Shown in pieces: positions 1,285 through 55,366 of a DNA stretch of 64,000 nucleotides (the first letter of the stretch is position 1; the number at the start of each line of letters is the position of its first letter). This DNA is from an uncultured Bacteroidota bacterium (GTDB taxonomy: Bacteria; CLD3; SB21). The notes under the pieces are model-generated. The model did not search any database. It was not told where the DNA came from and saw only the letters and a program-made list of their open reading frames with translations. Position numbers and translations under genes: made by a program. The stretch covers positions 5,296 through 69,295 of the forward strand of contig CAYZJB010000001.1 in the NCBI GenBank assembly GCA_964478735.1, read 5' to 3'.

Positions 1285-1412
1285 TTTAATGTATAAGAGG
1301 AATTGAGTGGAAATGCAACCGACAGGTGCCGGCGGACAAAAATTGTCGGATTGAATTTAATCAATGGCCGTGACGCTTGGAACTTTGTAGTCGATTCCAT
1401 AGATTGCCCGTC

Positions 1413-20348: not shown

Positions 20349-20456
20349 TAAAGACGTGCAACTATCGCTTGATCGCCTCGTATGTTTACGTGTTTTCAAG
20401 CAACTTCATACACGTATGTCGGTCTGATGATCACACAGAGCAAAGGAGAGTGATCA

Positions 20457-22336
20457 TGAAATCCTTATTATTTCTGCTTTTAACCCTTCTTCTTGTGTCC
20501 AATTCACAAGTTACGGCTCAAGCTCATTTTGACGATGAAGAGCAAGTTTTTGAAAAAACAGACCGGGACGAAGGCTCGATCATTTCTTCTGGCGAAGAAA
20601 AAGCGGACGACTATCTTGACGATGATTTGATCGCCGAAGTGAAAAAACGTTTTCTGGCGGGGTCGGATCGCCTGACGATCGTTCATGGCGATTACGAAAT
20701 GAAAGCCGGACGCCGAACGGACACGGACTTGCTCGTGATCAACGGATCGCTCACCGTCGACGGTACACTGGACGGACATGCGGTCGTGGCCAACGGGAAC
20801 ATTATACTGAAAGAAAGCGGTATTATCACCAAGAATGCCGTGGTCGTCAACGGGAAGATGATCGTTGAAAATTCAGCACAAGTCGAAGGCGACGAGATCC
20901 AGATGGGATGGAGTGATTTACGGGGTCATTCGTCGGAAAAAGTGAAAAAGGCGGAACGGGACGAAGAAAATTGCGATGAACAGTTGACCGATCTGCACGA
21001 CGACATGCAATCCCTCAACAAAGAAATGAGGGACCTGGCGGAGGAGATGAAGAGGCGAAGCGAGGAGATTCGTAATCAGGGACAGGAATTTTCCGCCGCT
21101 TATGCCGAAAGTGAAAATGACCGTTCGGCTTATCGCCATTCATATCGTAACGAATACGATGGCGATGAGGATGAAGAAGCAGAGGACAATGATCGTGCGG
21201 GAAATGTCGACTGGGAGGACCAATGGAACTCGTTTGGATACAAGTCGAAGTACAACAACGATTTTATCGTTTTGCAATACAATCGCGTAAACGGGTTGTT
21301 GCTGGGCGGTAAGCTCGACAAAAATCATCGTTATTTTCGCCGCAAACCGTTCCAGATTTTCGGCCAACTGGCGTATTCGTTCGGTCTGGACCGCGCGGAT
21401 TATCAGTTCGGCGTCAATAAATTTTTCGGGAATCGGTATCGGTTTGAGATCGGCGGAGAATTTCACGATCAACTGCAATCGAACGACGACCGGCTGATCG
21501 GCAACGGGGAAAACACGATCAATGCGCTCCTGTTCAAGCGCGATTTTAAGGATTATTTTCTCGTCGATGGATTCAGCCTTCACGCCGGTCAGAGTTTGAA
21601 TCGACACCTCAAATTGACGGGTACCTATCGCCATGATCGTTACATTTCAGCGGACAATCAGGTCAACTGGGCGCTTTTCCGTCCCACACAGGACTTTCGG
21701 CTGAACCCCGGGATCGACGAAGGACACATGGTGACGGTTGCCGGGCGGGTGGAGTTCAACACGGTTTCCGAAGTACGCATCGGCCGCCGGATTCATAAAC
21801 GCAAAGGCTGGGCGATTGCCGCGGAGGGCGAACGGGGCTTTCGTTCCCTGAATTCCGATTTTCATTTCTCGCGCTATACGGTTGAAGTCGTCCACTATCA
21901 TCCGCTCAGTCGGTGGGAAAATCTGGATACTCGCGTGATGGTGGGTTCTGCGACCGGCGATGTACCGTTGCAAAAATTATTCTACGTCGGCGGGATCAGT
22001 ACGATGCGGGGACACGGTTATAAAGAATTTTCAGGAAACCAGATGGCGCTGGCCAACGTGGAGTATCGCATTCACTCACGGCGTTTTTCCGACGACAGGA
22101 TCTTCTTTATCCATCCGTTCAGCGTCATCCTGTTTGCGGATGCGGGATACGCATGGAACAACGCCATTGATGGTCTGAAAGAGCTGGCCGACGGTGTCCG
22201 GATACGGGACGTGGAAACCGATCTGGGAATAGGATTCGGTGACGAAAAAGATCTTTTCCGGATCGATTTTGCGAAAAATGTTTCCCGGGCCGATAGCGAT
22301 TATAAGATCAATCTCCGATTGAATTACGCATTTTAA
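20457..22336 (+). CDS. Omp85-family outer membrane beta-barrel protein with N-terminal bactofilin-like repeat domain and an acidic coiled-coil linker
   Basis: Signal peptide MKSLLFLLLTLLLVSNSQVTAQA. Repeat LLVINGSLTVDGTLDGHAVVANGNIILKESGIITKNAVVVNGKMIVENSAQVEGDEI. Charged coiled coil with EDNDRAGN acidic stretch. C-terminal FYVGGISTMRGHGY (GG..RG loop-6 motif), NVEYRIH, FADAGYAWNN, terminal NYAF. Confidence 0.6.
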
Positions 22337-26495: not shown

Positions 26496-27857
26496 ATGGC
26501 GTATTATTCTCACATTCTGGATGTCATCGGTCGAACACCTCTGGTCAAACTCAACCGCGTTGGCGTACATCTGGAATGTAACCTGTTCGGAAAGTGTGAA
26601 TTCTTGAATCCCGGAGGTTCCCTGAAAGACCGGATCGGCTACTCGATGGTGGAAGCAGCGGAAAAAGAAGGCAGGATCCGTCCGGGCGATACGCTGATCG
26701 AGCCGACGAGCGGCAATACGGGAATAGGACTTGCACTCGCGGGTGCCGTCAAAGGGTACCGGGTGATCATTACGATGCCGGAAAAAATGAGCCGCGAAAA
26801 ACAGGTCGTTCTCGAAGCGCTCGGGGCGGAAATTATCCGTACTCCGACTGAGGCGGCGTACGATTCACCCGAGAGTCACATTAGCGTTGCACGGCGGCTG
26901 CAAAAAGAACTGCCCAACGCGCATATTCTGGATCAGTATTCCAATCCCAACAACCCGTTGATTCACTATAAAACAACTGCGGAAGAAATTCTGAATGACC
27001 TGGAGGGGCGTGTCGACATGGTAGTGATGGGGGCGGGAACCGGCGGATCGATCACCGGCGTTGCCAAGCGGATGAAGGAAGTGAACGCGAAATGTATCAT
27101 TGTCGGCGCCGATCCCGTCGGCAGCATCTTAGGCGGCGGCAGCGAAGTGGGCACCTATAAAGTCGAGGGCATCGGGTACGATTTTATTCCTGAAGTGTTG
27201 GATCGAAATCTTGTAGACGAATGGGTCAAGACGGAGGACCAGCAGTCGTTTTTGCTTTCGCGACGTCTGATTCGTGAGGAGGGTCTGCTGGTCGGCGGCT
27301 CCAGCGGGTCGGTCCTTTATGCGGCCTTGAAGGCGGCCCCCCGCTTGAAAAAAGGACAAAATTGCGTGGTCGTACTGCCCGACGGCGTACGCAATTACAT
27401 GACCAAATTTGTCGACGACAAATGGATGCGGGAAAACGGATTTTTCCAGACCAAGCCGTTGCACGGGCGAGTCAAAGACCTGTTGATGAAAGTGTCCGAG
27501 CGTCCGCCTCTGACATGCGCGGACGACATGCAGACCGTCGGATCGGTTATTACGATCATGCGCGAAAAAGGCATTTCGCAATTACCGGTTACCTCCGGCG
27601 GTGTCCTGGTGGGGATGGTTTCGGAGGCCGACCTGATGGAGTTTTTGGTCTCGGGTGCCGGTTCGATGGACGCGCTGGTATCGAAATGCACAAACCGACA
27701 GGTGCCGAGTGTCGGATTCAACACGCCGATCAGTACGCTGCAGGATGCGCTCCGTAAAAGTCCGGCGGCCGTCGTTGTCGACGAAGACAAGAAGCCGGTG
27801 AGCATTATGACGCGCATCGATTTACTCGATTTTTTGACCGAAGAAAACAAAGGATAA
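26496..27857 (+). CDS. cystathionine beta-synthase (PLP fold-type II with C-terminal CBS pair)
   Basis: PLVKLNR, NPGGSLKDRIG and EPTSGNTGIGLA motifs; tandem CBS motifs at the C-terminus. Confidence 0.82.
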   Translation: MAYYSHILDVIGRTPLVKLNRVGVHLECNLFGKCEFLNPGGSLKDRIGYSMVEAAEKEGRIRPGDTLIEPTSGNTGIGLALAGAVKGYRVIITMPEKMSREKQVVLEALGAEIIRTPTEAAYDSPESHISVARRLQKELPNAHILDQYSNPNNPLIHYKTTAEEILNDLEGRVDMVVMGAGTGGSITGVAKRMKEVNAKCIIVGADPVGSILGGGSEVGTYKVEGIGYDFIPEVLDRNLVDEWVKTEDQQSFLLSRRLIREEGLLVGGSSGSVLYAALKAAPRLKKGQNCVVVLPDGVRNYMTKFVDDKWMRENGFFQTKPLHGRVKDLLMKVSERPPLTCADDMQTVGSVITIMREKGISQLPVTSGGVLVGMVSEADLMEFLVSGAGSMDALVSKCTNRQVPSVGFNTPISTLQDALRKSPAAVVVDEDKKPVSIMTRIDLLDFLTEENKG

Positions 27858-27860
27858 TCC

Positions 27861-29003
27861 ATGGGATTCAGTACCGACGCCATTCATGCCGGTCAGCGGC
27901 CCGATCCGACGACCGGGGCCGTCATGACGCCGATTTACCAGACGTCGACGTACGCGCAGGAGGAACTGGGCGTCAGCAAGGGGTTTGACTACGGCCGTAC
28001 GATCAACCCGACCCGTCTGGCGCTCGAGGCCAATATTTCCACGCTTGAAAAAGGAAAATACGGGATTGCATTTGCCAGCGGGCTGGCCTCGCTGCAGGCG
28101 GTAGCGGGTTTGCTCAGCCAGGGCGACCACGTCGTGGCGTCCCATAACGTGTACGGCGGTACGTTCCGCTTTTTTGAACGCATCATGAAGCGTTACGGCG
28201 TCAACGTGTCGTGGGTCGATACAACCGACACCCGCAACATGTCGGCGGCGATCCGGCCGGAGACGAAAATGATTTTCGTCGAAACACCGACCAATCCGAT
28301 GCTGATGATAACGGATCTTGCCGCCGTTGCGGAACTGAGTCGGAAGCACAAACTGATCAGCGTGGTGGATAATACGTTCATGAGTCCCTATTTTCAGACG
28401 CCGCTCGAATTCGGGATCGATATCGTTCTGCACAGTACGACCAAGTACATCAACGGCCACAGCGACGTCATCGGGGGAATTCTGGTGACCGGCCGCGCGG
28501 ACCTGCATGAGTCGCTTCGCTTTTTGCAGAACGCCATCGGCGCCGTACCGTCGCCCATGGATTGTTTTTTCGTACTGCGGGCGACGAAGACCCTTGCCCT
28601 CCGGATGCGTCAGCATAACGACAATGCGATCCGGATGGCCAATTTTCTGGTCGAACATCCCAAAATCAAAAAAGTTCTGTACCCCGGGCTCCCTTCGCAT
28701 CCGCAGCACGCGCTGGCAAAAAAACAAATGCGCGGTTTTGGCGGCATGGTTTCTGTGGAAATGGGATCGCTCGAGGCGGGCAAACAGCTCGTCAAAAACG
28801 TGCGACTTTTTGCCCTTGCCGAGTCCCTCGGCGGCGTGGAAAGTCTGATCTGCCATCCGGCCAGCATGACCCACGCATCGGTCCCGAAGGAGGAACGCGA
28901 CAAACTGGGATTGACCGACGGTCTGGTGCGGCTGTCCGTCGGATGCGAAGATGCGGAGGATTTGATCGAAGACGTCCGTTCGGCGCTGGAGAAAGTCGGA
29001 TGA
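27861..29003 (+). CDS. cystathionine gamma-lyase/gamma-synthase family PLP enzyme
   Basis: TPIYQTSTY N-terminus; TKYINGHSDVIGG region with the PLP lysine. Confidence 0.85.
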   Translation: MGFSTDAIHAGQRPDPTTGAVMTPIYQTSTYAQEELGVSKGFDYGRTINPTRLALEANISTLEKGKYGIAFASGLASLQAVAGLLSQGDHVVASHNVYGGTFRFFERIMKRYGVNVSWVDTTDTRNMSAAIRPETKMIFVETPTNPMLMITDLAAVAELSRKHKLISVVDNTFMSPYFQTPLEFGIDIVLHSTTKYINGHSDVIGGILVTGRADLHESLRFLQNAIGAVPSPMDCFFVLRATKTLALRMRQHNDNAIRMANFLVEHPKIKKVLYPGLPSHPQHALAKKQMRGFGGMVSVEMGSLEAGKQLVKNVRLFALAESLGGVESLICHPASMTHASVPKEERDKLGLTDGLVRLSVGCEDAEDLIEDVRSALEKVG

Positions 29004-29218
29004 TCCACATCAATTACGATAAATGCGACTTGTGCGGTGCGTGTGTCGGCGTCTGTCCGTTTGACGCGCTCGAGCTTTCCGAATCCCGCCTTAGCGTTAT
29101 TCATTCCAATTGTACTGAGTGCGATTTTTGCGTGGAAATCTGTCCGTTCGAAGTTCTTCACAATGACGGTGTTCCGCTACGGCCTCGCGCGTCGGAACGC
29201 CGCAAGCAGGCTGTGTGA
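29000..29218 (+). CDS. small 2x[4Fe-4S] ferredoxin
   Basis: CDLCGACVGVCP and CTECDFCVEICP motifs. ATGA overlap with the upstream gene. Confidence 0.8.
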   Translation: MIHINYDKCDLCGACVGVCPFDALELSESRLSVIHSNCTECDFCVEICPFEVLHNDGVPLRPRASERRKQAV

Positions 29219-29223
29219 CATGC

Positions 29224-30699
29224 ATGGAGGCGTCCTCCTCGGACTGGATCCATTCGCTGGTCGGCCTTGTCGGGCTGACGGGTGTCGTCGCGACGGGCGA
29301 AGGCGCACGGAAAATTTTCGGATGGCCCGGTGAAACGACCCGCAAGTTGATCCATATCGGTACGGGCCTCATTGTCTTCCCGGCTCCTCTGTATATTTCA
29401 ACCCATGTTCCATTCGCTGTACTCGGTATTGTATTTGCCATCGTCAATTTTTTTGCCGTCCGATTTTCGTGGCTTCCCGGGATGCACGCCACACGGCGAA
29501 AAACATACGGGACGGTGTATTATCCCCTCGCGATCACCGGCCTCGCGTGGTTGTTCTGGGAAGCCCATCCGGAAATTTTTATGACGTCGGTTCTGGTGTT
29601 GTCCCTGGCGGATCCGCTGGCGGCCTGGGCCGGCGAGTGGTCGAAAACTCCCGTCCGGTTCAACTGGTGCGGTGATCCCAAAACGGTTCAGGGTTCGATC
29701 GCCATGGGCGTCGTAACGGCGGGGATCGTCTTGGCAGGGTCGTTTGTCTTGAGCGGCGGAGGTGGTTTTTCCCTCCAGGCGTTGATGAATGCTGTACTCG
29801 TCGGATGGATTGCTGCGATCGCGGAGGCAATGTCGTCGCGCGGATCGGATAATCTGAGCATTCCGGCCGCCGTATCTGCGTTTTTATTTATTACGCAATC
29901 TGTACCGCCCGATGGGATGACACAAATTCACTCCGGTTTCGTACTCGCCGCCGTCATTGCATGGGCCGCGTACCGGCTTAACGCATTGACGGGGGGCGGC
30001 GCCGTGGCTGCAACGCTGGTTGGAGGTCTCATTTTCGGACTGGGCGGATGGAGTATGGCCCTGCCGCTGTTGACGTTTTTCGTTACGTCAAGCCTTTTGT
30101 CGAAATGGGGTCGACGACGTCAGTCGATAGCAAATGATTGCGTACAGAAAACGGATCGGCGCGATGCGATGCAGGTCATGGCCAACGGCGGTGTGGCGTG
30201 CGTCATTGCCATCCTGGCGTACCTGTCCGACGATCGACGGTGGCTTCCTGTCTTTGCGGCCGCCGTCGCAGCGGCGAATGCCGACACATGGGCGACGGAA
30301 ATCGGCACGCGGTTCGGTCAACAGCCGATCGACATTCTGCGGTGGACGAAAGTGGAAACCGGAATGTCCGGCGGAGTCACGTGGATGGGCTCACTGGCAG
30401 CGGCGGCCGGTGGTTGGATCATTGCGGCGACGGTTTTTGTTACGGCTCCGGATGTGCCGGTAACTTCGATGTTATCGATTACGTGTGCTGCGCTGGCGGC
30501 ATCGTTTGTCGATAGTCTGCTGGGATCGGGACTGCAGGGCCGTTTTGAATGTACCGTATGTCAACAACCGACGGAAAAGACATCACACTGCGGCCGGACA
30601 ACCGTGCATCGAAGAGGCTGGAAATGGCTGAATAACGACGGCGTCAATGCAGTGACCATTGCGGCCGGAACCTGGTTCATGTGGATCGCGGAGTTTTAG
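29224..30699 (+). CDS. polytopic membrane protein: N-terminal phytol/dolichol-kinase-like region fused to a DUF92 (TMEM19-like) domain, with a Cys-rich C-terminal tail
   Basis: TRKLIHIGTG motif; about 12 TM helices; AAVAAANADTWATEIG (DUF92-like) region; tail CTVCQQPTEKTSHC. Confidence 0.5.
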   Translation: MEASSSDWIHSLVGLVGLTGVVATGEGARKIFGWPGETTRKLIHIGTGLIVFPAPLYISTHVPFAVLGIVFAIVNFFAVRFSWLPGMHATRRKTYGTVYYPLAITGLAWLFWEAHPEIFMTSVLVLSLADPLAAWAGEWSKTPVRFNWCGDPKTVQGSIAMGVVTAGIVLAGSFVLSGGGGFSLQALMNAVLVGWIAAIAEAMSSRGSDNLSIPAAVSAFLFITQSVPPDGMTQIHSGFVLAAVIAWAAYRLNALTGGGAVAATLVGGLIFGLGGWSMALPLLTFFVTSSLLSKWGRRRQSIANDCVQKTDRRDAMQVMANGGVACVIAILAYLSDDRRWLPVFAAAVAAANADTWATEIGTRFGQQPIDILRWTKVETGMSGGVTWMGSLAAAAGGWIIAATVFVTAPDVPVTSMLSITCAALAASFVDSLLGSGLQGRFECTVCQQPTEKTSHCGRTTVHRRGWKWLNNDGVNAVTIAAGTWFMWIAEF

Positions 30700-30700
30700 C

Positions 30701-31030
30701 ATGTTCATCGGTCGGGTGGTCGGTACGGTCTGGGCGACGAAAAAAGTCGATAACGTCAAATCGCTTCGTTTTTTGATGGTACATCCCGTCAATATCGATA
30801 AGGCACCAAACACGAACGTCGTCGTCGTTGCGGACACCCTGGGGGCCGGGATCGGCGAACTGGTGATTGTCTCATACGGACACGCCGCTCGACGGGCATT
30901 GACGACGGAACCGAACGAACTTTCTATCGAGGCCGCCGTGATCGGCATCGTCGATGAAATCGAAGTGGATGAAAAGCTGCTCAAGGGGTTGGAGACCCGT
31001 CGGTTACAACGTGACTTTCCCGATCTGTAG
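30701..31030 (+). CDS. EutN/CcmL/PduN-family (BMC vertex pentamer, Pfam PF03319-like) homolog, orphan
   Basis: MFIGRVVGTVWATKK..LRFLMVHPV, VVVVADTLGAGIGELVIVSYGHAARRAL and AAVIGIVDEIEV align position-by-position with CcmL and EutN. Confidence 0.8.
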   Translation: MFIGRVVGTVWATKKVDNVKSLRFLMVHPVNIDKAPNTNVVVVADTLGAGIGELVIVSYGHAARRALTTEPNELSIEAAVIGIVDEIEVDEKLLKGLETRRLQRDFPDL

Positions 31031-31034
31031 TACC

Positions 31035-33383
31035 ATGGTGCGCGTTTTTTTCATGCTGGCACTGTTCATGTCCTTGCCGATGGCGGCTCAGGAACTACCG
31101 GAGCACCGCTTCCGTAAGGTCTACGTGGATTCCATCGGCGTCTTGTTGGATTCGTTGCCTTCCGCTCAGGACACCGTGTTTGTGAGCGGTCGCGAATACC
31201 ACTTTCGGGGCGTCGATGAGAAGGGTGAGCACACCGGTCTTCGGGTATTTGACGACCTGACGCTGAACCTGTCGCTGCAGGTCGGGGAACAGGAAGAGCG
31301 TGAACTATCGGGGCTTCGCAGGGTGTTCAGCGGCATCGGCAATTTTATCGTCCGAATTGTCACATTAACGCTGGTCAATCCCGGATGGGGTTCGGATCGA
31401 TTTTTTTTCGACCGGGAAATTCTGGAAACCGATTTACGACGGATCCGGCAGCTTTACGAAGGCAAGGGATACTACGAAAGCAGAATTGTCCGGTATCGTG
31501 TGAAATTCGATGACGATTATAAAAACGTCGAAGTGACCCTTGACATTTACGAAGGCCGTCCGGTTCGACTCGTGAACGATCCGGAAATTCGAATCCAATC
31601 GGCCGTTCCGATCATCGATCCGAAAAAAGAATTGACGGACGATGCGCTAAAATCCGTGTTGCCGCTTCGCAAAAACGACCCTCTGGCACGCGATCAGATC
31701 GATTATGCGAAATCCCTGCTGGCGGCACGCCTCAGCCAGAACGGATATCCATCGGCCGATGTCCAGGAAAATATCGACACGACGGGGCTCGGACCCAGAG
31801 AAGCGGTGCTGATGTTCACCGTCATTCCGGGGCGATTTACCGTTTTTGGAGACACCCGGGTTCAAGGTAATTTCTACAAGGCCGACACAACGACCAAAAT
31901 CGTCGATGACGATGTCATCCTGAAGAAAGTTCGTTATAAACCGAACCGGCCGTACGATCCGAACCAGTTATCCCTCAGCATCGGCCAGATCAATGGACTC
32001 GGTGTTTTTCGGACGGTTAAGCCGACCCTCGTACGCCATAAGGGCTCCGTGGATTCTCTGCGTCTGCTTCCGGATTTCGTTCTCGATTCCATTCGATCCG
32101 GATCGGGGAACCGGCTGCATCTCAAACGCGCGGATTACCGGAAATACGGCGTACCCGTAGATACCATTGACGTCGTCATTGCCGTGGCGGAAAAAAAGGA
32201 ACGTTCGATCAAGCCGGGATTGGGTTTTACGAACGACTTTGTCGATTTACCGGAGGACAATAACGCCGTCATTCCCTTTACACGATTCCTCATTTCCTGG
32301 CAAAGCAAAAATTTCCTCGGCGGAGCAAGGAAACTTCAGGTCTCCGGTGAGGTCAGCAAGGGATTCGAGCAAACGGGGCCTTTTTTTGCAAATTACATGC
32401 TGGCCAAAGTAACTTTTCGTCAGCCGTCGTTTCAACTTCCGTTTACGAAAGACGTTAACAACGACTTGGTCACGTCGATCTCGTTTGAACGCAACAGCAC
32501 TCGCGCCTTTGACCTTCGGAAACTGGAAGTCTCCCCGACGTTTTTCCGTCAAATCAGCCAGTCGCTCAGCATGACGCTGACTCCGTTGTCGTTTAGCCGG
32601 GCGACGGAAGTGATTCGTGATGAACCGGATAATAAATTTTTTACCACGAATCAAATGCTCGGGTTCACGTACAACACGAGCAACGATTTTTTCAATCCGA
32701 CGTCGGGCTTTCTCATATACACCAACGGCGATGCGGCCGGTTTCACCCTGCCGAGCGACCGTAAATATTTTAAGTGGACGGTCGATGTCCGACGGTACAT
32801 CGGACTTTCTTCCCGCCTGACGCTGGCGTCGCGGTTTCACGTCGCGTCGGCCATCCCGTACTACGTGGACGGCGTTCGCGCGCAGATTCCCGCAAGCGAG
32901 CAGTTTTACGGCGGCGGGCCGAACAGCATCCGCGGATGGGGAATCCGCGAACTGGCCGTCGTACATGAAACGGCGGACGGACTGGCGTTTTTCGGCGGCA
33001 ATAGTTTGCTCGAGACCGGAATCGAATGTCGATACAACCTCTACATTTCACGAGACCCGAAAGAAGCGATCGGTGGAATGGATCTCGCCGGATTCGTCGA
33101 TGTCGGTAACGTATGGACGGAACATAATTTCAAGAACTTCAAAGACGCCAATGGCAATCGTCTTCCGGCGCAACCGGTAGCGGCCGTCGGCGTCGGCATG
33201 CGAATTCGCACCCTGATCGGACCGGTACGAATCGATTTTGGTTATAAGCTGAAAGATCCGAAAGATTTCAAAGTACTGGATACCTCCACCGATGCACGCG
33301 GCATTGTCGTGCCGATCAGTGCAACACAGGCAAAAAAAATCAACCGGCTTGCCTTCCAGATCACGCTGGGACAGGCCTACTGA
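31035..33383 (+). CDS. BamA/TamA-family Omp85 outer membrane protein (POTRA domains plus 16-strand barrel)
   Basis: Signal peptide MVRVFFMLALFMSLPMAAQE; POTRA-like repeats; FYGGGPNSIRGWG (loop-6 RG motif); GFVDVGNVW; C-terminal aromatic residue. Confidence 0.8.
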   Translation: MVRVFFMLALFMSLPMAAQELPEHRFRKVYVDSIGVLLDSLPSAQDTVFVSGREYHFRGVDEKGEHTGLRVFDDLTLNLSLQVGEQEERELSGLRRVFSGIGNFIVRIVTLTLVNPGWGSDRFFFDREILETDLRRIRQLYEGKGYYESRIVRYRVKFDDDYKNVEVTLDIYEGRPVRLVNDPEIRIQSAVPIIDPKKELTDDALKSVLPLRKNDPLARDQIDYAKSLLAARLSQNGYPSADVQENIDTTGLGPREAVLMFTVIPGRFTVFGDTRVQGNFYKADTTTKIVDDDVILKKVRYKPNRPYDPNQLSLSIGQINGLGVFRTVKPTLVRHKGSVDSLRLLPDFVLDSIRSGSGNRLHLKRADYRKYGVPVDTIDVVIAVAEKKERSIKPGLGFTNDFVDLPEDNNAVIPFTRFLISWQSKNFLGGARKLQVSGEVSKGFEQTGPFFANYMLAKVTFRQPSFQLPFTKDVNNDLVTSISFERNSTRAFDLRKLEVSPTFFRQISQSLSMTLTPLSFSRATEVIRDEPDNKFFTTNQMLGFTYNTSNDFFNPTSGFLIYTNGDAAGFTLPSDRKYFKWTVDVRRYIGLSSRLTLASRFHVASAIPYYVDGVRAQIPASEQFYGGGPNSIRGWGIRELAVVHETADGLAFFGGNSLLETGIECRYNLYISRDPKEAIGGMDLAGFVDVGNVWTEHNFKNFKDANGNRLPAQPVAAVGVGMRIRTLIGPVRIDFGYKLKDPKDFKVLDTSTDARGIVVPISATQAKKINRLAFQITLGQAY

Positions 33384-33748
33384 TGCGGCCATCGGCAAAA
33401 TATGGGTGGCCACCTTTGGCCTGGGCCGGCCTCATTTTTGTCGCGTCATCCATTCCAGGGAATGAATTGCCGTCCGATTCGCCGGACAAAATCATTCATA
33501 TGGCTGTCTTCGCGGTTCTTGCATACCTGGCCGTTCGTTTTTTCCTTCATACGGGCCATCGTTCATTTGTCCGGGCGCTTGCCTGGGGCCTGTCGTTGTC
33601 GCTGATGTATGCCGCGACGGATGAGTGGCATCAATGGATAGTTCCCAATCGATCGTGTGAATGGGGGGATTTTTTTGCCGACGCCGCAGGTATCGCCGCG
33701 GTCGGTATCTTTTATTATGTGAAGCGGATAAAGCATGTCGCTGTTTGA
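33383..33748 (+). CDS. VanZ family membrane protein
   Basis: DEWHQWIVPNRSCEWGDFFADAAG motif; 4 TM helices. Confidence 0.75.
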   Translation: MRPSAKYGWPPLAWAGLIFVASSIPGNELPSDSPDKIIHMAVFAVLAYLAVRFFLHTGHRSFVRALAWGLSLSLMYAATDEWHQWIVPNRSCEWGDFFADAAGIAAVGIFYYVKRIKHVAV

Positions 33749-34655
33749 AAAACTCAAAGAGCGCCTGGTCAAGACGCGCGCGCAGCTGTTCGGCCGGATT
33801 TCCGATTTGCTTCGCGGTACGACGTCCGTGGACCGCGCCGTGATTCAGCGAATCGAGGAAATCCTGTTGTCCGCCGACATCGGAGTGACGACGACCGGTC
33901 AGATCATTCGGGAACTCGAGCAGCGCGTCAAAAAGGAAAAAATCACCGATCCGGCCCGACTCAACGGTGTTTTGGAAGAAATCGTCGAACAGCGGCTCGT
34001 GGCAATCGACGCCGTCAATCTTGAAGATCGTGTATCGACCGCCCGGCCGTTCGTCATCCTGGTCGTCGGCGTCAACGGTACGGGAAAAACGACGACAATC
34101 GGTAAGCTCGCTCACCGGTTTGCCCGATCGGGGCGGCGCGTGCTGTTGGCGGCGGCGGACACGTTTCGCGCGGCCGCGGCGAGTCAGCTGGAAATCTGGG
34201 CGCAGCGGTCGGAGGTGGGCATCGTGCGGCAAACGGAAGGCGCCGATCCGGCCGCCGTCGTATTTGACGCCCTCGAGTCAGCGAAATCGAAAAACATTGA
34301 CGTCGTGTTGATCGACACGGCCGGCCGGCTTCATACGAAAACCAATCTCATGGAAGAATTGAAAAAAATCCGACGCGTCGTCGAAAAGCTGGTCCCCGGC
34401 GCTCCCCATGCGACGCTGCTTGTTTTAGACGCGGGTACAGGGCAAAACGCAATCCAGCAGGCGAGGGAGTTTTCGAATACCGTCGGCGTGACAGGCCTTG
34501 TGCTGACCAAACTCGACGGAACGGCCAAAGGCGGCGTCGTCATCGCCATTCAAAACGAATTGAAAATTCCCGTCGCGTATATCGGCGTCGGAGAAAAGGT
34601 CGAGGACTTGGAGCCTTTCCGGGTACACGACTTCGTCGGCGCCATTCTGGAGTAA
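33735..34655 (+). CDS. ftsY: signal recognition particle receptor FtsY (NG domain)
   Basis: GVNGTGKTTTIGKLA and DTAGRLH motifs. Confidence 0.9.
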   Translation: MSLFEKLKERLVKTRAQLFGRISDLLRGTTSVDRAVIQRIEEILLSADIGVTTTGQIIRELEQRVKKEKITDPARLNGVLEEIVEQRLVAIDAVNLEDRVSTARPFVILVVGVNGTGKTTTIGKLAHRFARSGRRVLLAAADTFRAAAASQLEIWAQRSEVGIVRQTEGADPAAVVFDALESAKSKNIDVVLIDTAGRLHTKTNLMEELKKIRRVVEKLVPGAPHATLLVLDAGTGQNAIQQAREFSNTVGVTGLVLTKLDGTAKGGVVIAIQNELKIPVAYIGVGEKVEDLEPFRVHDFVGAILE

Positions 34656-34657
34656 AC

Positions 34658-36811
34658 GTGAGCAAAATTTTTTTCGCCATCGGAATTCACAATCATCAGC
34701 CAATCGGGAATTTTGAATTCGTCTTCGATGAGGCCTACCGGAAGGCATACCGGCCATTTGTTGAGCATCTGAAAGACCACACGAATATCCGCGTCGGACT
34801 GCACTACTCCGGTATCTTGCTCGAATGGCTCGATGCCGCGTATCCGGAATTTCTGGACGACGTGAATGAGCTCGTTCAAAAAGGTCAGGTCGAATTGATC
34901 GGCGGTGCCTACTACGAGCCCATTCTCACCATGATTCCACCGCAGGACATCCTGGGTCAGATCGACAAATTGAAATCGTACCTGCAGGACCGATTCAACG
35001 TACGGCCGCGAGGCGCCTGGACGGCGGAACGGGTGTGGGAACCGCATTTGCCGGCCGTCCTGCACGACGCCGGTATCGAGTACACCATTCTGGACGACGT
35101 GCATTTCCGCTATGCCGGTTTAAAACAGTCCGAACTCAACGGGTATTACCGGACCGAAGAAGACGGCAGGCCGGTCAATTTATTTCCTATCCACAAAGAA
35201 CTGCGTTATCTCATACCGTTTCAAAAACCTCAAAAAACGATCGATTACCTTTTGCGGCTGGGTGAGGAAGACCGTGATGTTCTTGCCGTCTTTGCCGACG
35301 ACGGTGAGAAATTCGGAATCTGGCCCAAAACGTACGATCATGTGTATACGGACGGATGGTTGGCAGAATTTTTTTCGTTACTCGGTAAACGTTCCGATTC
35401 GATCGAACTCATCCATTTTTCCGAGGCGATCGACCGTTTTCGTCCACGAGGTCTTGTCTATCTCCCGACGGCCAGCTATACGGAAATGGGACACTGGGCC
35501 CTTCCGGCCGATGACTATGCGCGGTATGAACAATTGACCCGATCGATCACAGACAGCGGCGACCGGGCACTGATCAAGGGCGGGTTCTGGCGTAATTTTT
35601 TCGTGAAGTACCCGGAAGCGAACCACATGCATAAGCGGATGCTCCGACTCAGCCGGCGTATCGCGAGGCTGGGCGTAGAGGACCGACCGAAAGAGCAACG
35701 CGACATGATCCGCGAGGCCGAAAATCATTTATGGGCCGGCCAGTGCAACTGTCCGTACTGGCACGGGGTGTTTGGTGGTTTGTATTTGAACAACCTTCGT
35801 TACCGGATTTACAAAGAACTCTTGCTGGCTGAAAAAATGGCCGACGTCGTCGAATTCGGTGGTCGCCAAGACGCCTGCCGGATCGAGGAAATCGATTTTG
35901 ATTACGACGGACAATCGGAGATACTCGTTGAAACTGCACGCACCAATGTGTATTTTGACCGGCATGGACACGTACTCGAACTCGATTACAAAGACGTCCC
36001 GATGAACGTGACGGACGTTTTGACACGGCGTCGCGAGGGGTACCATCAACAACTGATTGAACAGCGGGAATCGAAAGAACAAAAAGATTCCGAAGAGATC
36101 GAAAGCATTCACGATCGCATCACCAGTAAGGAAAAAGGACTCGAGTCGCGCCTGCATTATGACCGGCGCCGCCGGGTGAGTTACCGGGAACTCTGGTTTG
36201 ACCGTGACATCGACCTGGAGGAAATGGCGAACGGCCAGGCCGAGAGCGACACGGCCATCGATTCGGTGTTTACCAACCACTCGACGTCACGATCGATCGA
36301 CGTTGCATGGACAAGCCGGTTGACCGCAGACGGTCACGAAATTCAGTGTGAAAAACGTTTTTTACTGATGCCCGATGGCGAACTCCAATTGCGCTGTGCG
36401 GTGACCAACCGCGGTACGAGAACTGCGTCGGGTCGTCTGGGTCTTGAGATGAATTTTACTCTGCTGGCCGGTGCAGCCGACGACCGCTATTACGTGATTG
36501 ACGGAATGAAACCGCCGGAGCCGCAGTTAAACAGTTATGGTGAGAGCGAGCATTCCACAAACGTGGCCTTGATTGATGAGTGGCAACGTTTACAAATTGG
36601 ATTACGGTTCGACAGTCCGGCGACGGTGTGGCGCTATCCCGTCGAAACGATCTCACTTTCGGAAGAGGGCTTTGAACGGGTTTATCAGGGGTCGTGCCTG
36701 CTGCCTTTTTGGACGTTGGCACTGAAACCTGGCGAGACATGGCACGTTGAAATAAAAACGCTTATGACAAGAAGCATTTCCTATACGACGGGAGGTCAAC
36801 ATGAAACCTAG
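34658..36811 (+). CDS. glycoside hydrolase family 57 protein (alpha-amylase/4-alpha-glucanotransferase-like) with C-terminal extension
   Basis: IHNHQP and GGAYYEPIL motifs; 717 aa. Confidence 0.75.
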   Translation: MSKIFFAIGIHNHQPIGNFEFVFDEAYRKAYRPFVEHLKDHTNIRVGLHYSGILLEWLDAAYPEFLDDVNELVQKGQVELIGGAYYEPILTMIPPQDILGQIDKLKSYLQDRFNVRPRGAWTAERVWEPHLPAVLHDAGIEYTILDDVHFRYAGLKQSELNGYYRTEEDGRPVNLFPIHKELRYLIPFQKPQKTIDYLLRLGEEDRDVLAVFADDGEKFGIWPKTYDHVYTDGWLAEFFSLLGKRSDSIELIHFSEAIDRFRPRGLVYLPTASYTEMGHWALPADDYARYEQLTRSITDSGDRALIKGGFWRNFFVKYPEANHMHKRMLRLSRRIARLGVEDRPKEQRDMIREAENHLWAGQCNCPYWHGVFGGLYLNNLRYRIYKELLLAEKMADVVEFGGRQDACRIEEIDFDYDGQSEILVETARTNVYFDRHGHVLELDYKDVPMNVTDVLTRRREGYHQQLIEQRESKEQKDSEEIESIHDRITSKEKGLESRLHYDRRRRVSYRELWFDRDIDLEEMANGQAESDTAIDSVFTNHSTSRSIDVAWTSRLTADGHEIQCEKRFLLMPDGELQLRCAVTNRGTRTASGRLGLEMNFTLLAGAADDRYYVIDGMKPPEPQLNSYGESEHSTNVALIDEWQRLQIGLRFDSPATVWRYPVETISLSEEGFERVYQGSCLLPFWTLALKPGETWHVEIKTLMTRSISYTTGGQHET

Positions 36812-38369
36812 GTATGTATTGCCGCTGATGTTTGTTGCGGTCATTATCGTTCTTGTGACAGGATTTGCCGATACGGCGCAGAACGCGTACAAGAACATCA
36901 TCAAACTTCAGCGGGTCCTGGATCTGGTCCAGAATACCTATGTTGAAGAGGTGGACGGCGAAAAGCTCGTCGATGATGCCATCGTCGGTGCGTTAAAAGG
37001 ACTCGACCCTCATTCCGTCTACATCCCGCCCAAGGAGGCCCGTCAGGTCAAAGAAGAATTTCAGGGTAACTACGAGGGTATTGGAATACAATTCGAAGTT
37101 GTGGCGGGTACATTGATCGTCGTCACACCCATTCCCGGGTCTCCGTCCGATCGTCTGGGTCTTTTGGCCGGCGACCGGATCGTCAAGATCAACGGCGAAT
37201 CAACCAAAGGCATTACGACGGAGGAAGTCCCGAAAAAACTCAAAGGTCCTCGCGGCACTACCGTCCACGTTTCCATCCAGCGGCAAGGCCTGGAGGAATT
37301 GCTGGAGTTCGATATCGTGAGGGACAAAATCCCGGTGTACTCGGTCGATGCGAAATTTATGCTTGACGACAAAACGGGTTACATTCATTTCGTGCGGTTC
37401 GCTGAAACAACGTCCGATGAAGTGGAACAGGCGATCATCGAATTGGCGGCGCAGGGCATGCAGCAATTGGTTCTCGACCTGCGCTTCAATGGAGGCGGTT
37501 ATCTCGAACAAGCTCACGAAATCGTCGATAAATTTCTCCCCGGCGGGAAAAAAATCGTCTTTACCAAGGGACGCATTCCGGGTTCGACGCGTGATTATTT
37601 TTCGTCGAATAAAAAATCGTATCGCGATTTTCCGCTGATCGTGCTGGTCAACCGGCACTCGGCCTCGGCGTCGGAAATCGTCGCGGGGGCGGTGCAGGAC
37701 CTAGATCGCGGTCTGGTCGTCGGCGAACGGACGTTCGGAAAGGGCCTCGTCCAGTCCCAGTTCGATCTCAACGACGGATCGGCCGTACGGGTGACGACGG
37801 GACGTTACTATACGCCGAGCGGACGATTGATCCAGCGTGCCTACGATGGGAAATCACTGGATGATTATTATTCGGAAGTTCGAAACATTGAGGAACTGAA
37901 AACGGATTCGTCGTTGGTGTTTTACACGAGCCAGAAACGCGTCGTTTACGGCGGAGGCGGAATCGTGCCGGACTATTTTCTTCAGTACGATACCATCACG
38001 CCATACTATTCACGTTTGCTGAGCCGGGGTATTCTCAAAGAATATTCCAACAAGATGCTCGATGCACACGGAACCCGGTTGCGAGATCAATACAAGTCCA
38101 ACTTTCGTGCGTTCTTGAGCCAGTACAAAATTCCGCAAGAATGGATGGATGATGTAATCGCTCTCGGAGGCTCCAAAGGGGTTGAAAAAGACGAGGCAGC
38201 GCTGGCCGTCGACGGCGAAGACATTGCCAATAATTTGAAAGCCGAACTGGCCCGTTATATCTGGGGCAATAACGAAGCCGCCCACGTGCGTATTCTCACG
38301 GACCGCATGGTAAGAGAAACGGTACCGTACTTCAAAGAAGCCACTAAATTTGCGTCGAGTTTTAAGTAA
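36801..38369 (+). CDS. ctp: S41 family C-terminal processing peptidase (tail-specific protease) with PDZ domain
   Basis: PDZ region GIGIQFEVVAGTLIVVTPIPGSPSDRLGLLAGDRIVKING; NRHSASASE (catalytic Ser); GERTFGKG (catalytic Lys). Confidence 0.88.
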   Translation: MKPRYVLPLMFVAVIIVLVTGFADTAQNAYKNIIKLQRVLDLVQNTYVEEVDGEKLVDDAIVGALKGLDPHSVYIPPKEARQVKEEFQGNYEGIGIQFEVVAGTLIVVTPIPGSPSDRLGLLAGDRIVKINGESTKGITTEEVPKKLKGPRGTTVHVSIQRQGLEELLEFDIVRDKIPVYSVDAKFMLDDKTGYIHFVRFAETTSDEVEQAIIELAAQGMQQLVLDLRFNGGGYLEQAHEIVDKFLPGGKKIVFTKGRIPGSTRDYFSSNKKSYRDFPLIVLVNRHSASASEIVAGAVQDLDRGLVVGERTFGKGLVQSQFDLNDGSAVRVTTGRYYTPSGRLIQRAYDGKSLDDYYSEVRNIEELKTDSSLVFYTSQKRVVYGGGGIVPDYFLQYDTITPYYSRLLSRGILKEYSNKMLDAHGTRLRDQYKSNFRAFLSQYKIPQEWMDDVIALGGSKGVEKDEAALAVDGEDIANNLKAELARYIWGNNEAAHVRILTDRMVRETVPYFKEATKFASSFK

Positions 38370-38388
38370 GGACGATCGGAAAAAACGA

Positions 38389-38420
38389 AAAGCGGCGAAA
38401 TCTCGCCGCTTTTTCTTTTT
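38389..38420 (+). terminator. rho-independent terminator of ctp
   Basis: Stem AGCGGCGA / TCGCCGCT, loop AATC, then TTTTCTTTTT. Confidence 0.75.
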
Positions 38421-49826: not shown

Positions 49827-50621
49827 TTGACGGTTATCGAATCCCTCAGCGGGGGTTCACGAATCCCTTGTCCTATAGCACGACGTATTTTTGGTTTGCA
49901 GCTGCCACGGATGGTATCGATACAACCTTCAGCGATGCGTGGCGTTTTACTGCGATTCCGCCACCCATCATTACGCTTTTTTCCGAATCCTTTGAAATCA
50001 ATTCGGTTTTGGGGCGGCGTCTGGACAGCATCCGATTTTAATTCGACCTCCGGTCTCGACTACTGGGGCGACCAGTCCACAGGAAACGGAGCACGCGTGC
50101 ACGGTGGAAGTTGGAGCGCTTATTATGCGGACAACAGCGACGTATCCGGACAACTGGACGACAACGATATGCTCGCTGCGATGGGTCCAACGAACGTGAT
50201 CAACACGTCCGGATATACGAACATCCAGCTCAAATACTGGCTGTCCTACGATACTGAACCCGGGTTGGACGTGCTTAACGTTCAATACTGGAACGGTTCA
50301 CAATATGTAATCGTGACCGGTTCGACCAAAAGCGGATTTGGAAATTGGACGGAGTATACGATCAATTTCACAGGCGGCACGTCGCTCGACGTTATATTCG
50401 TTTTTGAAACGGATGGAAGTGTTGTAGACGAAGGTGCCTATGTTGATGACATCACTGTCACGGGCATGCCGACGTCGGTCAACCCGGCGGCGCTCGGAGA
50501 GAACGAGATGTACGTCGAACTCACAAATTTTTCCTCACGCGTCGGTTATGCGCCGCCCGCGAGGATCGATCGGTCAAACCTATTGCAAAAAAAGAAACCC
50601 GCCAAAAAATTACTTTACTAA
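49827..50621 (+). CDS. hypothetical protein with a lectin/MAM- or choice-of-anchor-like jelly-roll domain; no signal peptide, so possibly a gene fragment
   Basis: ...IQLKYWLSYDTEPGLDVLNVQYWNGSQYVIVTGSTKSGFGNWTEYTINF...AYVDDITVTG pattern. Confidence 0.35.
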   Translation: MTVIESLSGGSRIPCPIARRIFGLQLPRMVSIQPSAMRGVLLRFRHPSLRFFPNPLKSIRFWGGVWTASDFNSTSGLDYWGDQSTGNGARVHGGSWSAYYADNSDVSGQLDDNDMLAAMGPTNVINTSGYTNIQLKYWLSYDTEPGLDVLNVQYWNGSQYVIVTGSTKSGFGNWTEYTINFTGGTSLDVIFVFETDGSVVDEGAYVDDITVTGMPTSVNPAALGENEMYVELTNFSSRVGYAPPARIDRSNLLQKKKPAKKLLY

Positions 50622-55332: not shown

Positions 55333-55366
55333 GATGAAGTCTAAAGAAGAGCCTGAAAAAAGTAAA

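What the first reader, a model, noticed from the sequence alone, without database searches (positions are those of the whole stretch)
30701..33383. Orphan EutN/CcmL-type microcompartment vertex-protein homolog lies 4 bp upstream of a BamA-like Omp85 gene
The 109-aa product aligns across its full length with CcmL, EutN and PduN, including the GAGxGE and IVD blocks. No BMC-H or BMC-T shell genes (Pfam00936-like GDVGAVKAA sequences) and no signature enzymes occur anywhere in this 64 kb. The gene instead sits in a tightly packed co-directional array: ferredoxin, DUF92 membrane protein, EutN-like, BamA-like, VanZ, FtsY. The stop-to-start gaps are ATGA overlaps or 1-4 bp, so it is probably co-transcribed with envelope-biogenesis genes. 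It also carries a ~14 aa C-terminal extension (GLETRRLQRDFPDL) absent from canonical vertex proteins. Either a shell locus exists elsewhere and this is a satellite gene, or the pentameric EutN fold has been put to a non-microcompartment use.
Basis: partly seen in the sequence, partly recalled or inferred. Interest (0 to 1): 0.72.

Follow-up and report, generated by a model that had tools for sequence, protein, structure and literature searches.

The report
Stray microcompartment vertex gene, not envelope-linked
The small gene is a genuine bacterial-microcompartment vertex protein, most likely one scattered piece of a "fragmented" microcompartment whose other genes lie elsewhere in the genome, and its position beside an outer-membrane assembly gene is a quirk of one bacterial lineage rather than a sign of a new function.

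Summary
Window 30701-31030(+) encodes a 109-aa PF03319 protein (88 bits against a cut-off of 25). Its predicted fold matches only solved BMC-P pentamer subunits. It sits 1 nt after a DUF92 gene and 4 nt before an Omp85/POTRA gene. The 64 kb contains no BMC-H, no second BMC-P and no signature enzyme.

The "new use" reading is not supported. The DUF92-EutN-Omp85 order occurs only in the window's own deep Bacteroidota lineage (about 15 genomes). In 67 loci from other phyla the ortholog never lies next to Omp85 or DUF92. There it is followed by an ACT-domain protein and DUF711 (46 loci), and 18 loci have BMC-H within 10 kb.

One ortholog is exactly AUJ47_07965. Sutter et al. 2021 catalogued that protein as a satellite BMC-P of a fragmented (FRAG4) microcompartment, in a subclade that also holds ACI and FRAG8 main-locus proteins.

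Three genomes of the window's lineage also encode a class II aldolase with a C-terminal encapsulation-peptide-like tail. The Moorella homolog of this aldolase heads a canonical BMC operon.

Best reading: a satellite vertex gene of a dispersed BMC. It is a new member of a known kind, of low to moderate interest. I could not test whether BMC-H is present elsewhere in the genome.

The parts
30701..31030 (+). BMC-P (EutN/CcmL, PF03319) vertex-protein gene, 109 aa. The core is residues 1-85. The tail is residues 86-109 and carries lineage-conserved L93, L94, G96, L97, L102 and P107.
   Evidence: Pfam 88.2 bits. PDB sequence hits are all BMC-P, E 2e-14 to 4e-6. AlphaFold model pLDDT 83, and the 47 Foldseek matches with E<=0.001 are all BMC-P chains. 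Conservation table.
31035..33383 (+). Omp85-family outer-membrane protein with POTRA repeats (BamA-like, 782 aa). It is the downstream neighbour and is not inferred to be a functional partner.
   Evidence: PF01103 129.9 bits and PF07244 78.7 bits. TIGR03303 177.7 bits, below the cut-off of 297. Orthologs at 46-98% identity occur only in the same lineage; the next hit is at 27%.
29215..30699 (+). DUF92 integral membrane protein (494 aa; the DUF92 domain covers residues 244-485). It is the upstream neighbour.
   Evidence: PF01940 204.8 bits. Junction checked.
26496..38369 (+). Tightly packed co-directional ten-gene cluster: CBS-PALP, Cys/Met PLP enzyme, ferredoxin, DUF92, BMC-P, Omp85, VanZ, FtsY, GH57, S41 peptidase. 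It is probably one transcription unit of unrelated housekeeping genes.
   Evidence: Gaps range from -14 to +4 nt. Pfam assignments. The same ten-gene order is found in L001-L020. L088 keeps only the Fer4-DUF92-BMC-P-Omp85-VanZ-FtsY part, with a different upstream block and the contig ending after FtsY.
38387..38414 (.). The only strong intrinsic-terminator-like hairpin in the region (12-bp stem, T-runs on both strands). It closes the cluster.

Best explanation
The 109-aa protein is a bona fide microcompartment vertex (BMC-P) subunit. It belongs to a strongly conserved BMC-P subclade, the ACI/FRAG8/FRAG4 branch of 'P_waterBlue2' in the 2021 BMC catalogue. In this Bacteroidota lineage the microcompartment genes are not clustered. 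Instead they are scattered singly into housekeeping operons, which is the fragmented or 'satellite' organisation.

Inferred mechanism: five copies form a truncated-pyramid pentamer that caps the vertices of a shell. The shell is built from BMC-H/BMC-T proteins encoded elsewhere in the genome. Its cargo includes a class II aldolase that carries a C-terminal encapsulation peptide.

The position between DUF92 and the Omp85 gene gives co-transcription with constitutive envelope and secretion genes. It does not indicate a shared function.

Shown: family membership, fold, retention of all family-invariant residues, lineage-restricted synteny, orthologs in BMC loci, and the EP-type aldolase in three genomes of the same lineage.

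Inferred: pentamer formation, presence of BMC-H in this genome, and shell assembly.
For: 1. Family and fold. PF03319 scores 88 bits. The fold matches only BMC-P pentamer subunits: GrpN 4i7a, CcmL, EutN and HO shell 5v74.

2. Spread of the family. It occurs in at least 493 genomes of Calditrichota, Marinimicrobia, Zixibacteria, Gemmatimonadota, Acidobacteriota, Ignavibacteriales and Delongbacteria, at 52-72% identity to the window protein.

3. BMC context in out-groups. 18 of the 67 out-group loci have PF00936 BMC-H within 10 kb, often together with a PduS-like gene or an aldehyde dehydrogenase.

4. Link to the catalogue. The L053 ortholog is identical to AUJ47_07965. That protein is listed as 'FRAG4 (sat), waterBlue2' next to Cabys_2141, an ACI main-locus BMC-P and a FRAG8 main-locus BMC-P (PMC8217296, supplementary file 11). 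FRAG BMCs are defined there by shell genes in up to six genomic places, remote from enzymes. They occur in Ignavibacteria, Kryptonia, Bacteroidetes and related phyla. Caldithrix abyssi, which has the same solitary ortholog, has a MIC BMC locus elsewhere (PMC4207490).

5. Retained residues. The core residues invariant across this sample (F2, G4, G8, W11, T13, F24, L25, P29, D45, G48-A49-G50, V55, Y59, G60, A62-A63-R64, A66, E77-A78-A79, I83, D85) are unchanged in all window-lineage sequences, including the window protein. They are equally invariant in the BMC-H-linked loci.

6. Purifying selection. The gene is the most conserved one in its operon within the lineage: 79-94% identity, against Omp85 44-67%, FtsY 60-67% and DUF92 38-46%.

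7. Cargo in the same lineage. Three lineage genomes encode a PF00596 aldolase with a Cys motif plus a terminal amphipathic helix. These are JBBIRG01, CAYPIY01 (the assembly of L018) and CAYPYN01 (the assembly of L014). The tail is homologous to that of the Moorella aldolase, which opens an operon of aldolase, three BMC-H, AldDh, PduS, BMC-T, PTAC and EutN.
Against: - No BMC-H, BMC-T or second BMC-P was found in the 64-kb window, nor within +/-10 kb of the gene in 14 related genomes. I could not search any complete genome of the lineage.
- The ACT-DUF711 pair that accompanies this BMC-P in 46 out-group loci is absent from the window.
- The EP-type aldolase was not found in the window itself. 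It is shown only for sister species.
- The lineage-specific conserved tail motif is unexplained.
Confidence: 0.72

Rival explanations
1. The BMC-P fold has been re-used outside a microcompartment in this lineage. On this view it acts as a soluble pentameric factor together with the co-transcribed Omp85, DUF92, VanZ and FtsY envelope/secretion genes.
For: Tight operon packing with Omp85: a 4-nt gap here, and the same gene order in about 15 lineage genomes. No shell genes in 64 kb. A lineage-specific conserved C-terminal motif, L93 L94 G96 L97 L102 P107. In Calditrichota the ortholog lies two genes downstream of a BamD/YfiO gene, so a second Bam component neighbours the family.
Against: The adjacency is absent from all 67 out-group loci. 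The spacing is not conserved even inside the lineage, with gaps of about 20 to about 135 nt in L009-L020. The operon also holds Cys/Met metabolism, GH57 and a protease, so it is not a functional module. No family-invariant residue has changed. The lineage keeps an encapsulation-peptide aldolase, which only makes sense if a shell exists.
Confidence: 0.08
2. This BMC-P subclade works mainly with the ACT-domain protein and DUF711 (UPF0210) enzyme that follow it in most phyla. This would be a small assembly that does not need a full shell. The window's copy would be a remnant that has lost those partners.
For: The order EutN > ACT > DUF711 is found in 46 of 67 out-group loci, mostly with gaps of 2-60 nt. 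Many of these loci have no BMC-H within 10 kb. The ACT protein has a conserved N-terminal amphipathic segment. Sutter et al. call this ACT protein the only BMC-typical non-shell protein of FRAG4.
Against: In Zixibacteria, Ignavibacteriales and Pyrinomonadaceae the same trio lies inside loci that have BMC-H. Calditrichota and Marinimicrobia are catalogued as having BMC-H elsewhere, in FRAG2/3/4. The window has no ACT or DUF711, yet its BMC-P is under strong constraint.
Confidence: 0.12
3. The gene is a decaying relic of a lost microcompartment and has no current function.
For: It is solitary in 64 kb and has no recognisable partner nearby.
Against: The ORF is intact in every lineage genome. It is the best-conserved gene of the operon at 79-100% identity, and all invariant residues are kept. 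The exact protein was recovered from several independent metagenomes.
Confidence: 0.03

Closest known systems
Satellite BMC-P genes of fragmented (FRAG) microcompartments, in particular AUJ47_07965 of Ca. Marinimicrobia CG1_02_48_14 (FRAG4) and Cabys_2141 of Caldithrix abyssi (Sutter et al. 2021, PMC8217296; satellite loci defined in Axen et al. 2014, PMC4207490)
   Same: Same BMC-P subfamily: 58-62% identity, the same invariant residues and a tail of similar length. The gene is solitary, lies far from other shell genes, and has no enzymes of a BMC pathway beside it.
   Different: In those genomes the gene is followed by ACT and DUF711 genes; here it sits between DUF92 and Omp85. The window's lineage does not appear among the waterBlue2 entries of the catalogue's BMC-P tree that I read (parts 21-22 of 41). 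I have not shown here that other shell genes exist in this genome.
ACI (Acidobacteria) and FRAG8 (Gemmatimonadetes) main-locus BMC-P of the P_waterBlue2 subclade
   Same: Orthologous protein at 52-64% identity (L027, L031, L071, L075, L084, L085). The ACI type uses a PF00596 class II aldolase with a C-terminal encapsulation peptide, and the window's lineage also encodes such an aldolase.
   Different: In those types BMC-H lies within 10 kb of the gene, and an aldehyde dehydrogenase does in several of them. Here it is alone.
Structurally characterised vertex proteins: GrpN (4i7a), HO-shell BMC-P (5v74), CcmL (4jvz, 2qw7) and EutN (2hd3)
   Same: Same fold, with TM-score 0.78-0.89 on the target and 30-40% identity. 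Same GAGxGE and I-V-D motifs.
   Different: The window protein carries a tail about 10-24 residues longer and has a family-specific invariant W11. The oligomeric state was not determined here.

Membership tests
BMC-P / EutN_CcmL (PF03319) | Scores above the Pfam gathering threshold over the whole domain | tested here: met
   88.2 bits against 25, model positions 1-83 of 83
BMC-P / EutN_CcmL (PF03319) | The beta-barrel fold of solved pentamer subunits | tested here: met
   AlphaFold model pLDDT 83. The top 47 Foldseek PDB matches are all BMC-P.
BMC-P / EutN_CcmL (PF03319) | Forms homopentamers that occupy shell vertices | not testable with these tools
   Only monomer prediction is available. 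It is inferred from retention of residues invariant across the subfamily.
BMC-P / EutN_CcmL (PF03319) | Co-occurs in the genome with PF00936 (BMC-H/BMC-T) shell genes | not testable with these tools
   None in the 64-kb window, and none within +/-10 kb in 14 related genomes. No whole genome could be searched.
Satellite BMC locus (Axen 2014) | The locus encodes PF03319 or PF00936, but not both | tested here: met
   One BMC-P and no BMC-H in the window
Satellite BMC locus (Axen 2014) | Further shell genes are present elsewhere in the same genome | not testable with these tools
   Indirect support only: an EP-type aldolase on other contigs of the sister genomes CAYPIY01 and CAYPYN01
FRAG-type BMC (Sutter 2021) | BMC components are dispersed over several genomic places, remote from each other | tested here: inconclusive
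   BMC-P and the EP-aldolase lie on different contigs in two sister genomes and 7 kb apart in a third. Only two components were located.
FRAG-type BMC (Sutter 2021) | [quoted passage not shown] | not testable with these tools
   No paralog lies within 10 kb of the gene in any of the 88 sources scanned. This needs whole genomes.
P_waterBlue2 ACI/FRAG8/FRAG4 subclade of BMC-P | Closest relatives are catalogued members of that subclade | tested here: met
   The L053 protein is AUJ47_07965 and is 62% identical to the window protein. Solved BMC-P of other clades are 21-40% identical. This rests on similarity; no tree was built.
BamA (TIGR03303 equivalog), for the neighbouring gene | Scores above the NCBIfam equivalog cut-off | tested here: not met
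   177.7 bits against 297.15. It is an Omp85/POTRA protein, but I do not file it as BamA.

The most novel reading that the evidence does not exclude
In this deep Bacteroidota lineage the vertex protein no longer caps a shell. Instead it works as a pentameric cytoplasmic factor tied to outer-membrane protein biogenesis, co-transcribed with an Omp85 protein, DUF92, VanZ and FtsY. Its lineage-specific amphipathic C-terminal tail would serve as the docking element.
Probability: 0.07. Interest if true: 0.8.

Novelty: new member of a known kind. Interest (0 to 1): 0.27.

Why it matters
The finding as posed, a shell-less EutN recruited to envelope biogenesis, would have been a striking re-use of an organelle protein, but the evidence points away from it.

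What remains is modest but useful.
- It extends the poorly understood 'fragmented' microcompartments to another uncultured Bacteroidota lineage.
- In that lineage single BMC genes (the vertex protein and an encapsulation-peptide aldolase) are embedded in constitutive housekeeping operons.
- This particular BMC-P subclade is unusually conserved across phyla, at 52-72% identity. Outside the window's lineage it is almost always followed by an ACT-domain protein and a DUF711 enzyme. That pair is a concrete candidate cargo for FRAG and ACI microcompartments, whose function is still unknown.

Tried and rejected
1. BMC-H, further BMC-P and BMC enzymes in the window. I used tblastn with PduA, CcmK2 and EutM recalled from memory. 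I then ran an HMM built from locus BMC-H sequences with --max at E<=10 and a BMC-P HMM. I also ran tblastn with ACT, DUF711, AldDh and PduS representatives. Nothing was found.

2. A functional link to Omp85 through synteny. This is rejected because the adjacency exists only in the window's lineage. I tried to find sister clades where DUF92 and Omp85 are adjacent without EutN. That failed because the Omp85 protein has no relatives above 27% identity outside the lineage.

3. P0158's contig has the same length (14,650 bp) as that of the Gemmatimonadota locus L027, so I suspected the two might be one contig. It proved to be a different contig, L088, and that contig led to the aldolase finding.

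4. The aldolase is not in the window or in the other EutN loci.

5. Direct detection of BMC-H in the lineage's genomes was not possible.

6. Promoter scan: the number of sites equals the shuffle expectation, so it is uninformative.

7. A literature search for later work on FRAG BMCs found nothing beyond the 2021 catalogue.
Full report
**1. What is there**

Window 30701-31030(+) is an intact ATG-to-TAG ORF of 109 aa.
- It matches Pfam PF03319 (EutN_CcmL) over the entire model at 88.2 bits, E 5.4e-25, against a gathering score of 25.
- NCBIfam places it nearest to CcmL and EutN but below every equivalog cut-off. It is therefore a BMC-P that belongs to none of the named types.
- A sequence search of the PDB finds only vertex proteins: GrpN 4i7a, HO-shell BMC-P 5v74, CcmL and EutN, with E from 2e-14 to 4e-6.
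- An AlphaFold model built on a 24-sequence alignment has mean pLDDT 83. Residues 103-109 are unstructured.
- The 47 Foldseek PDB matches with E<=0.001 are all BMC-P chains, with TM-scores up to 0.89 on the target.

Ten co-directional genes run from 26496 to 38369: CBS-PALP, Cys/Met PLP enzyme, ferredoxin, DUF92, BMC-P, Omp85/POTRA, VanZ, FtsY, GH57 and S41 peptidase. They are separated by -14 to +4 nt. The only strong terminator-like hairpin is at 38387-38414.

The Omp85 protein has POTRA and Omp85 domains. It scores 177.7 on the BamA equivalog model against a cut-off of 297, so it is BamA-like rather than demonstrably BamA.

**2. Is it really an orphan within the window?**

Yes.
- An HMM built from BMC-H genes found in related loci plus three reference sequences was run without filters on every six-frame ORF of at least 40 aa. 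It gave no window hit even at E<=10.
- A BMC-P HMM finds only the one gene.
- Representatives of the genes that accompany this BMC-P elsewhere (ACT protein, DUF711, aldehyde dehydrogenase, PduS-like, BMC-H) have no match in the window.
- The roughly 40 larger ORFs that I scanned are housekeeping genes. They include TamB, a MacAB/TolC-type pump, NifS, peptidases, RNase Y, PheT, Sir2, thymidylate kinase, Na/Ca exchangers, DAHP synthase and an acyl-CoA dehydrogenase.

**3. Is the adjacency to Omp85 conserved?**

Only within one lineage.

The protein has more than 1,300 database relatives. A scan of one genome per GTDB species found at least 493 genomes that encode a relative, and the best 80 loci were fetched.

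In thirteen species labelled 'uncultured Bacteroidota' or 'bacterium' (L008-L020), the BMC-P is 79-94% identical and the whole ten-gene order is kept. One more genome, L088, has the same Fer4-DUF92-EutN-Omp85-VanZ-FtsY core.

In all 67 other loci there is no Omp85 or DUF92 neighbour. These loci come from Calditrichota, Marinimicrobia/Fidelibacterota, Delongbacteria, Zixibacteria, Gemmatimonadota, Acidobacteriota and Ignavibacteriales.

Even inside the lineage the 4-nt spacing is not kept: the gaps in L009-L020 are about 20 to about 135 nt. Orthologs of the Omp85 protein exist only in this lineage at 46-98% identity, and the next database hit is at 27%. The lineage is therefore deep-branching, and I could not examine a sister clade that lacks the BMC-P.

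**4. What surrounds the orthologs elsewhere**

Clustering of the neighbouring ORFs, followed by Pfam, gave three patterns.
- In 46 of the 67 out-group loci the BMC-P is followed, mostly within 2-60 nt, by an ACT-domain protein and then by a DUF711 (UPF0210) protein.
- In Calditrichota the wider block is BamD(YfiO)-NadD-BMC-P-ACT-DUF711-CN hydrolase-AccB-AccC-GcvH.
- Eighteen loci carry PF00936 BMC-H genes within 10 kb. In Zixibacteria and Ignavibacteriales the order is BMC-H, BMC-P, a PduS/RnfC-like flavoprotein, a BMC-H with a long C-terminal extension, and then ACT and DUF711. In Gemmatimonadota and Pyrinomonadaceae/Chloracidobacterium there are BMC-H genes and an aldehyde dehydrogenase.

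So the same orthologous protein is a component of recognisable BMC loci in several phyla.

**5. Link to the published catalogue**

Sutter et al. 2021 (PMC8217296) describe 'FRAG' microcompartments. Their shell genes lie in up to six genomic places and are mostly remote from enzymes. They occur in Ignavibacteria, Ca. Kryptonia, Bacteroidetes, Chlorobi, Rhodothermaeota, Calditrichaeota, Marinimicrobia, Gemmatimonadetes and others. The only BMC-typical non-shell protein of FRAG4 is an ACT-domain protein.

Their BMC-P tree holds a branch of 'P_waterBlue2' made up of four proteins:
- an ACI main-locus protein of 111 aa (Acidobacteria);
- a FRAG8 main-locus protein of 111 aa (Gemmatimonadetes);
- Cabys_2141 of Caldithrix abyssi LF13, 97 aa, labelled 'fragmented, sat';
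- AUJ47_07965 of Ca. Marinimicrobia CG1_02_48_14, 107 aa, labelled 'FRAG4 sat'.

My locus L053 comes from that same Marinimicrobia MAG. Its 107-aa BMC-P is, by exact sequence look-up, AUJ47_07965. It is 62% identical to the window protein.

Axen et al. 2014 (PMC4207490) defined satellite loci as loci with only PF03319 or only PF00936. They reported a MIC-type BMC locus elsewhere in Caldithrix abyssi, and seven BMC-P genes in five loci in Melioribacter.

The window gene therefore fits a described category: a solitary BMC-P of a dispersed BMC.

**6. Is the protein still under 'shell-type' constraint?**

Across 64 distinct orthologs, the residues that are invariant in BMC-H-linked loci are equally invariant in the window's lineage. 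These are F2, G4, G8, W11, T13, F24, L25, P29, D45, G48-A49-G50, V55, Y59, G60, A62-A63-R64, A66, E77-A78-A79, I83 and D85.

Within the lineage the BMC-P is the most conserved gene of its operon. In L008, for example, it is 94% identical, against 86% for the Cys/Met enzyme, 67% for Omp85, 62% for FtsY and 46% for DUF92.

The tail (residues 86-109) varies between phyla. Within the lineage it keeps L93, L94, G96, L97, L102 and P107. I cannot explain this motif.

**7. Independent evidence that the lineage makes a microcompartment**

In L088, a lineage genome, a PF00596 class II aldolase lies 7 kb and nine ORFs upstream of the BMC-P. It has a roughly 60-aa C-terminal extension. The extension consists of a Cys-containing stretch, a linker and a terminal amphipathic helix, '...DDRMSQIISDIIHQQL...'.

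Its closest relatives carry the same tail. They lie in the same CcmF-x-ABC-aldolase-acyltransferase-NTP transferase context in several places:
- contig CAYPIY010000006.1, the same assembly as the BMC-P locus L018;
- contig CAYPYN010000009.1, the same assembly as L014;
- two Logan contigs.

A 39%-identical homolog with an alignable tail is found in the complete genome of Moorella sp. ACPs. There it is the first gene of a textbook BMC operon: aldolase, three BMC-H, AldDh, PduS-like, BMC-T, PTAC, EutN, acetate kinase and an FGGY kinase. A 216-aa FucA-like homolog lacks the tail.

The catalogue describes just such 'pfam00596 aldolase with a C-terminal EP' proteins as cargo of ACI, PVM, GRM5 and some HO BMCs.

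At least three genomes of the window's lineage thus encode both this BMC-P and an encapsulation-peptide-type cargo enzyme, each embedded alone in a housekeeping operon. The aldolase is not in the 64-kb window. I did not show that it is present in the window's own species.

**8. Interpretation**

The most economical account is that the gene is a satellite vertex-protein gene of a fragmented BMC, of a FRAG type with ACI-like features. Its place next to an Omp85 gene is a lineage-specific accident of gene order inside a mixed housekeeping operon.

The main gap is that no BMC-H gene of this lineage could be looked for outside the held fragments.

The rival readings are not excluded, but each has specific evidence against it (see the rival explanations):
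- an envelope-related moonlighting role;
- a shell-independent role with ACT and DUF711;
- a decaying relic.

**9. Verdict**

Of the interpretation, only the 'satellite' half is supported. This is a new member of a known kind. Interest is low to moderate, mainly as another example of the still uncharacterised fragmented BMCs, and as a pointer to ACT-DUF711 and the EP-aldolase as candidate cargo.

Noticed in passing
L088:1857-2657(-); also L089:10001-10831, L093:10001-10894, L091:4333-5127, L092:1336-2145: Genomes of the window's lineage encode a class II aldolase (PF00596) with a C-terminal Cys motif and an amphipathic helix that resembles an encapsulation peptide. It always lies in a CcmF-x-ABC-aldolase-acyltransferase-NTP transferase block with no shell genes nearby. 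The Moorella homolog heads a canonical BMC operon (L096).
   Followed up: yes
L021-L087, e.g. L053:10001-10777 and L042:10001-12300: Outside the window's lineage this BMC-P is followed in 46 of 67 loci by an ACT-domain protein and a DUF711/UPF0210 protein. The ACT protein has a conserved N-terminal amphipathic segment (consensus LxExxIRxIxExAxxQLG) that looks like an encapsulation peptide. This suggests ACT-DUF711 may be cargo of the FRAG and ACI microcompartments, whose function is unknown.
   Followed up: partly
Calditrichota loci, e.g. L042:7983-10000 and L046:4403-5770: In 18 Calditrichota loci a BamD/YfiO lipoprotein gene and nadD lie immediately upstream of the BMC-P. Two unrelated lineages therefore place this BMC-P near a Bam-complex gene. 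This is probably a coincidence of housekeeping neighbourhoods, but it is unexplained.
   Followed up: no
window 29215-30699(+): The DUF92 protein is 494 aa, but the DUF92 domain covers only residues 244-485. The hydrophobic N-terminal stretch of about 240 aa has no Pfam match. The orthologs are only 38-46% identical across the lineage.
   Followed up: no
window 5319-9455(+) and 20369-22336(+): The window also encodes a 1,378-aa TamB/AsmA-like protein and a second Omp85-family protein (DUF5686 plus Omp85). The BamA-like gene next to the BMC-P is thus one of several outer-membrane biogenesis genes scattered through the region.
   Followed up: partly
window 31035-33383(+): The Omp85/POTRA protein has orthologs only within this lineage (46-98% identity); the next database hit is at 27%. 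It is evolving far faster than the adjacent BMC-P, which keeps 52-72% identity across phyla.
   Followed up: partly
window 30956-31030 (protein residues 86-109): The C-terminal tail of the BMC-P varies between phyla. Within the lineage it keeps L93, L94, G96, L97, L102 and P107, a short amphipathic pattern of unknown role.
   Followed up: partly
window 54244-56443(-): Two tandem Na+/Ca2+ exchanger (PF01699) paralogs lie side by side.
   Followed up: no
window 61004-62611(-), 56518-57309(-), 49827-50621(+), 1377-2348(+): Four sizeable ORFs (535, 263, 264 and 323 aa) have no Pfam match at the E-value limits used (1e-4 or 1e-5).
   Followed up: no
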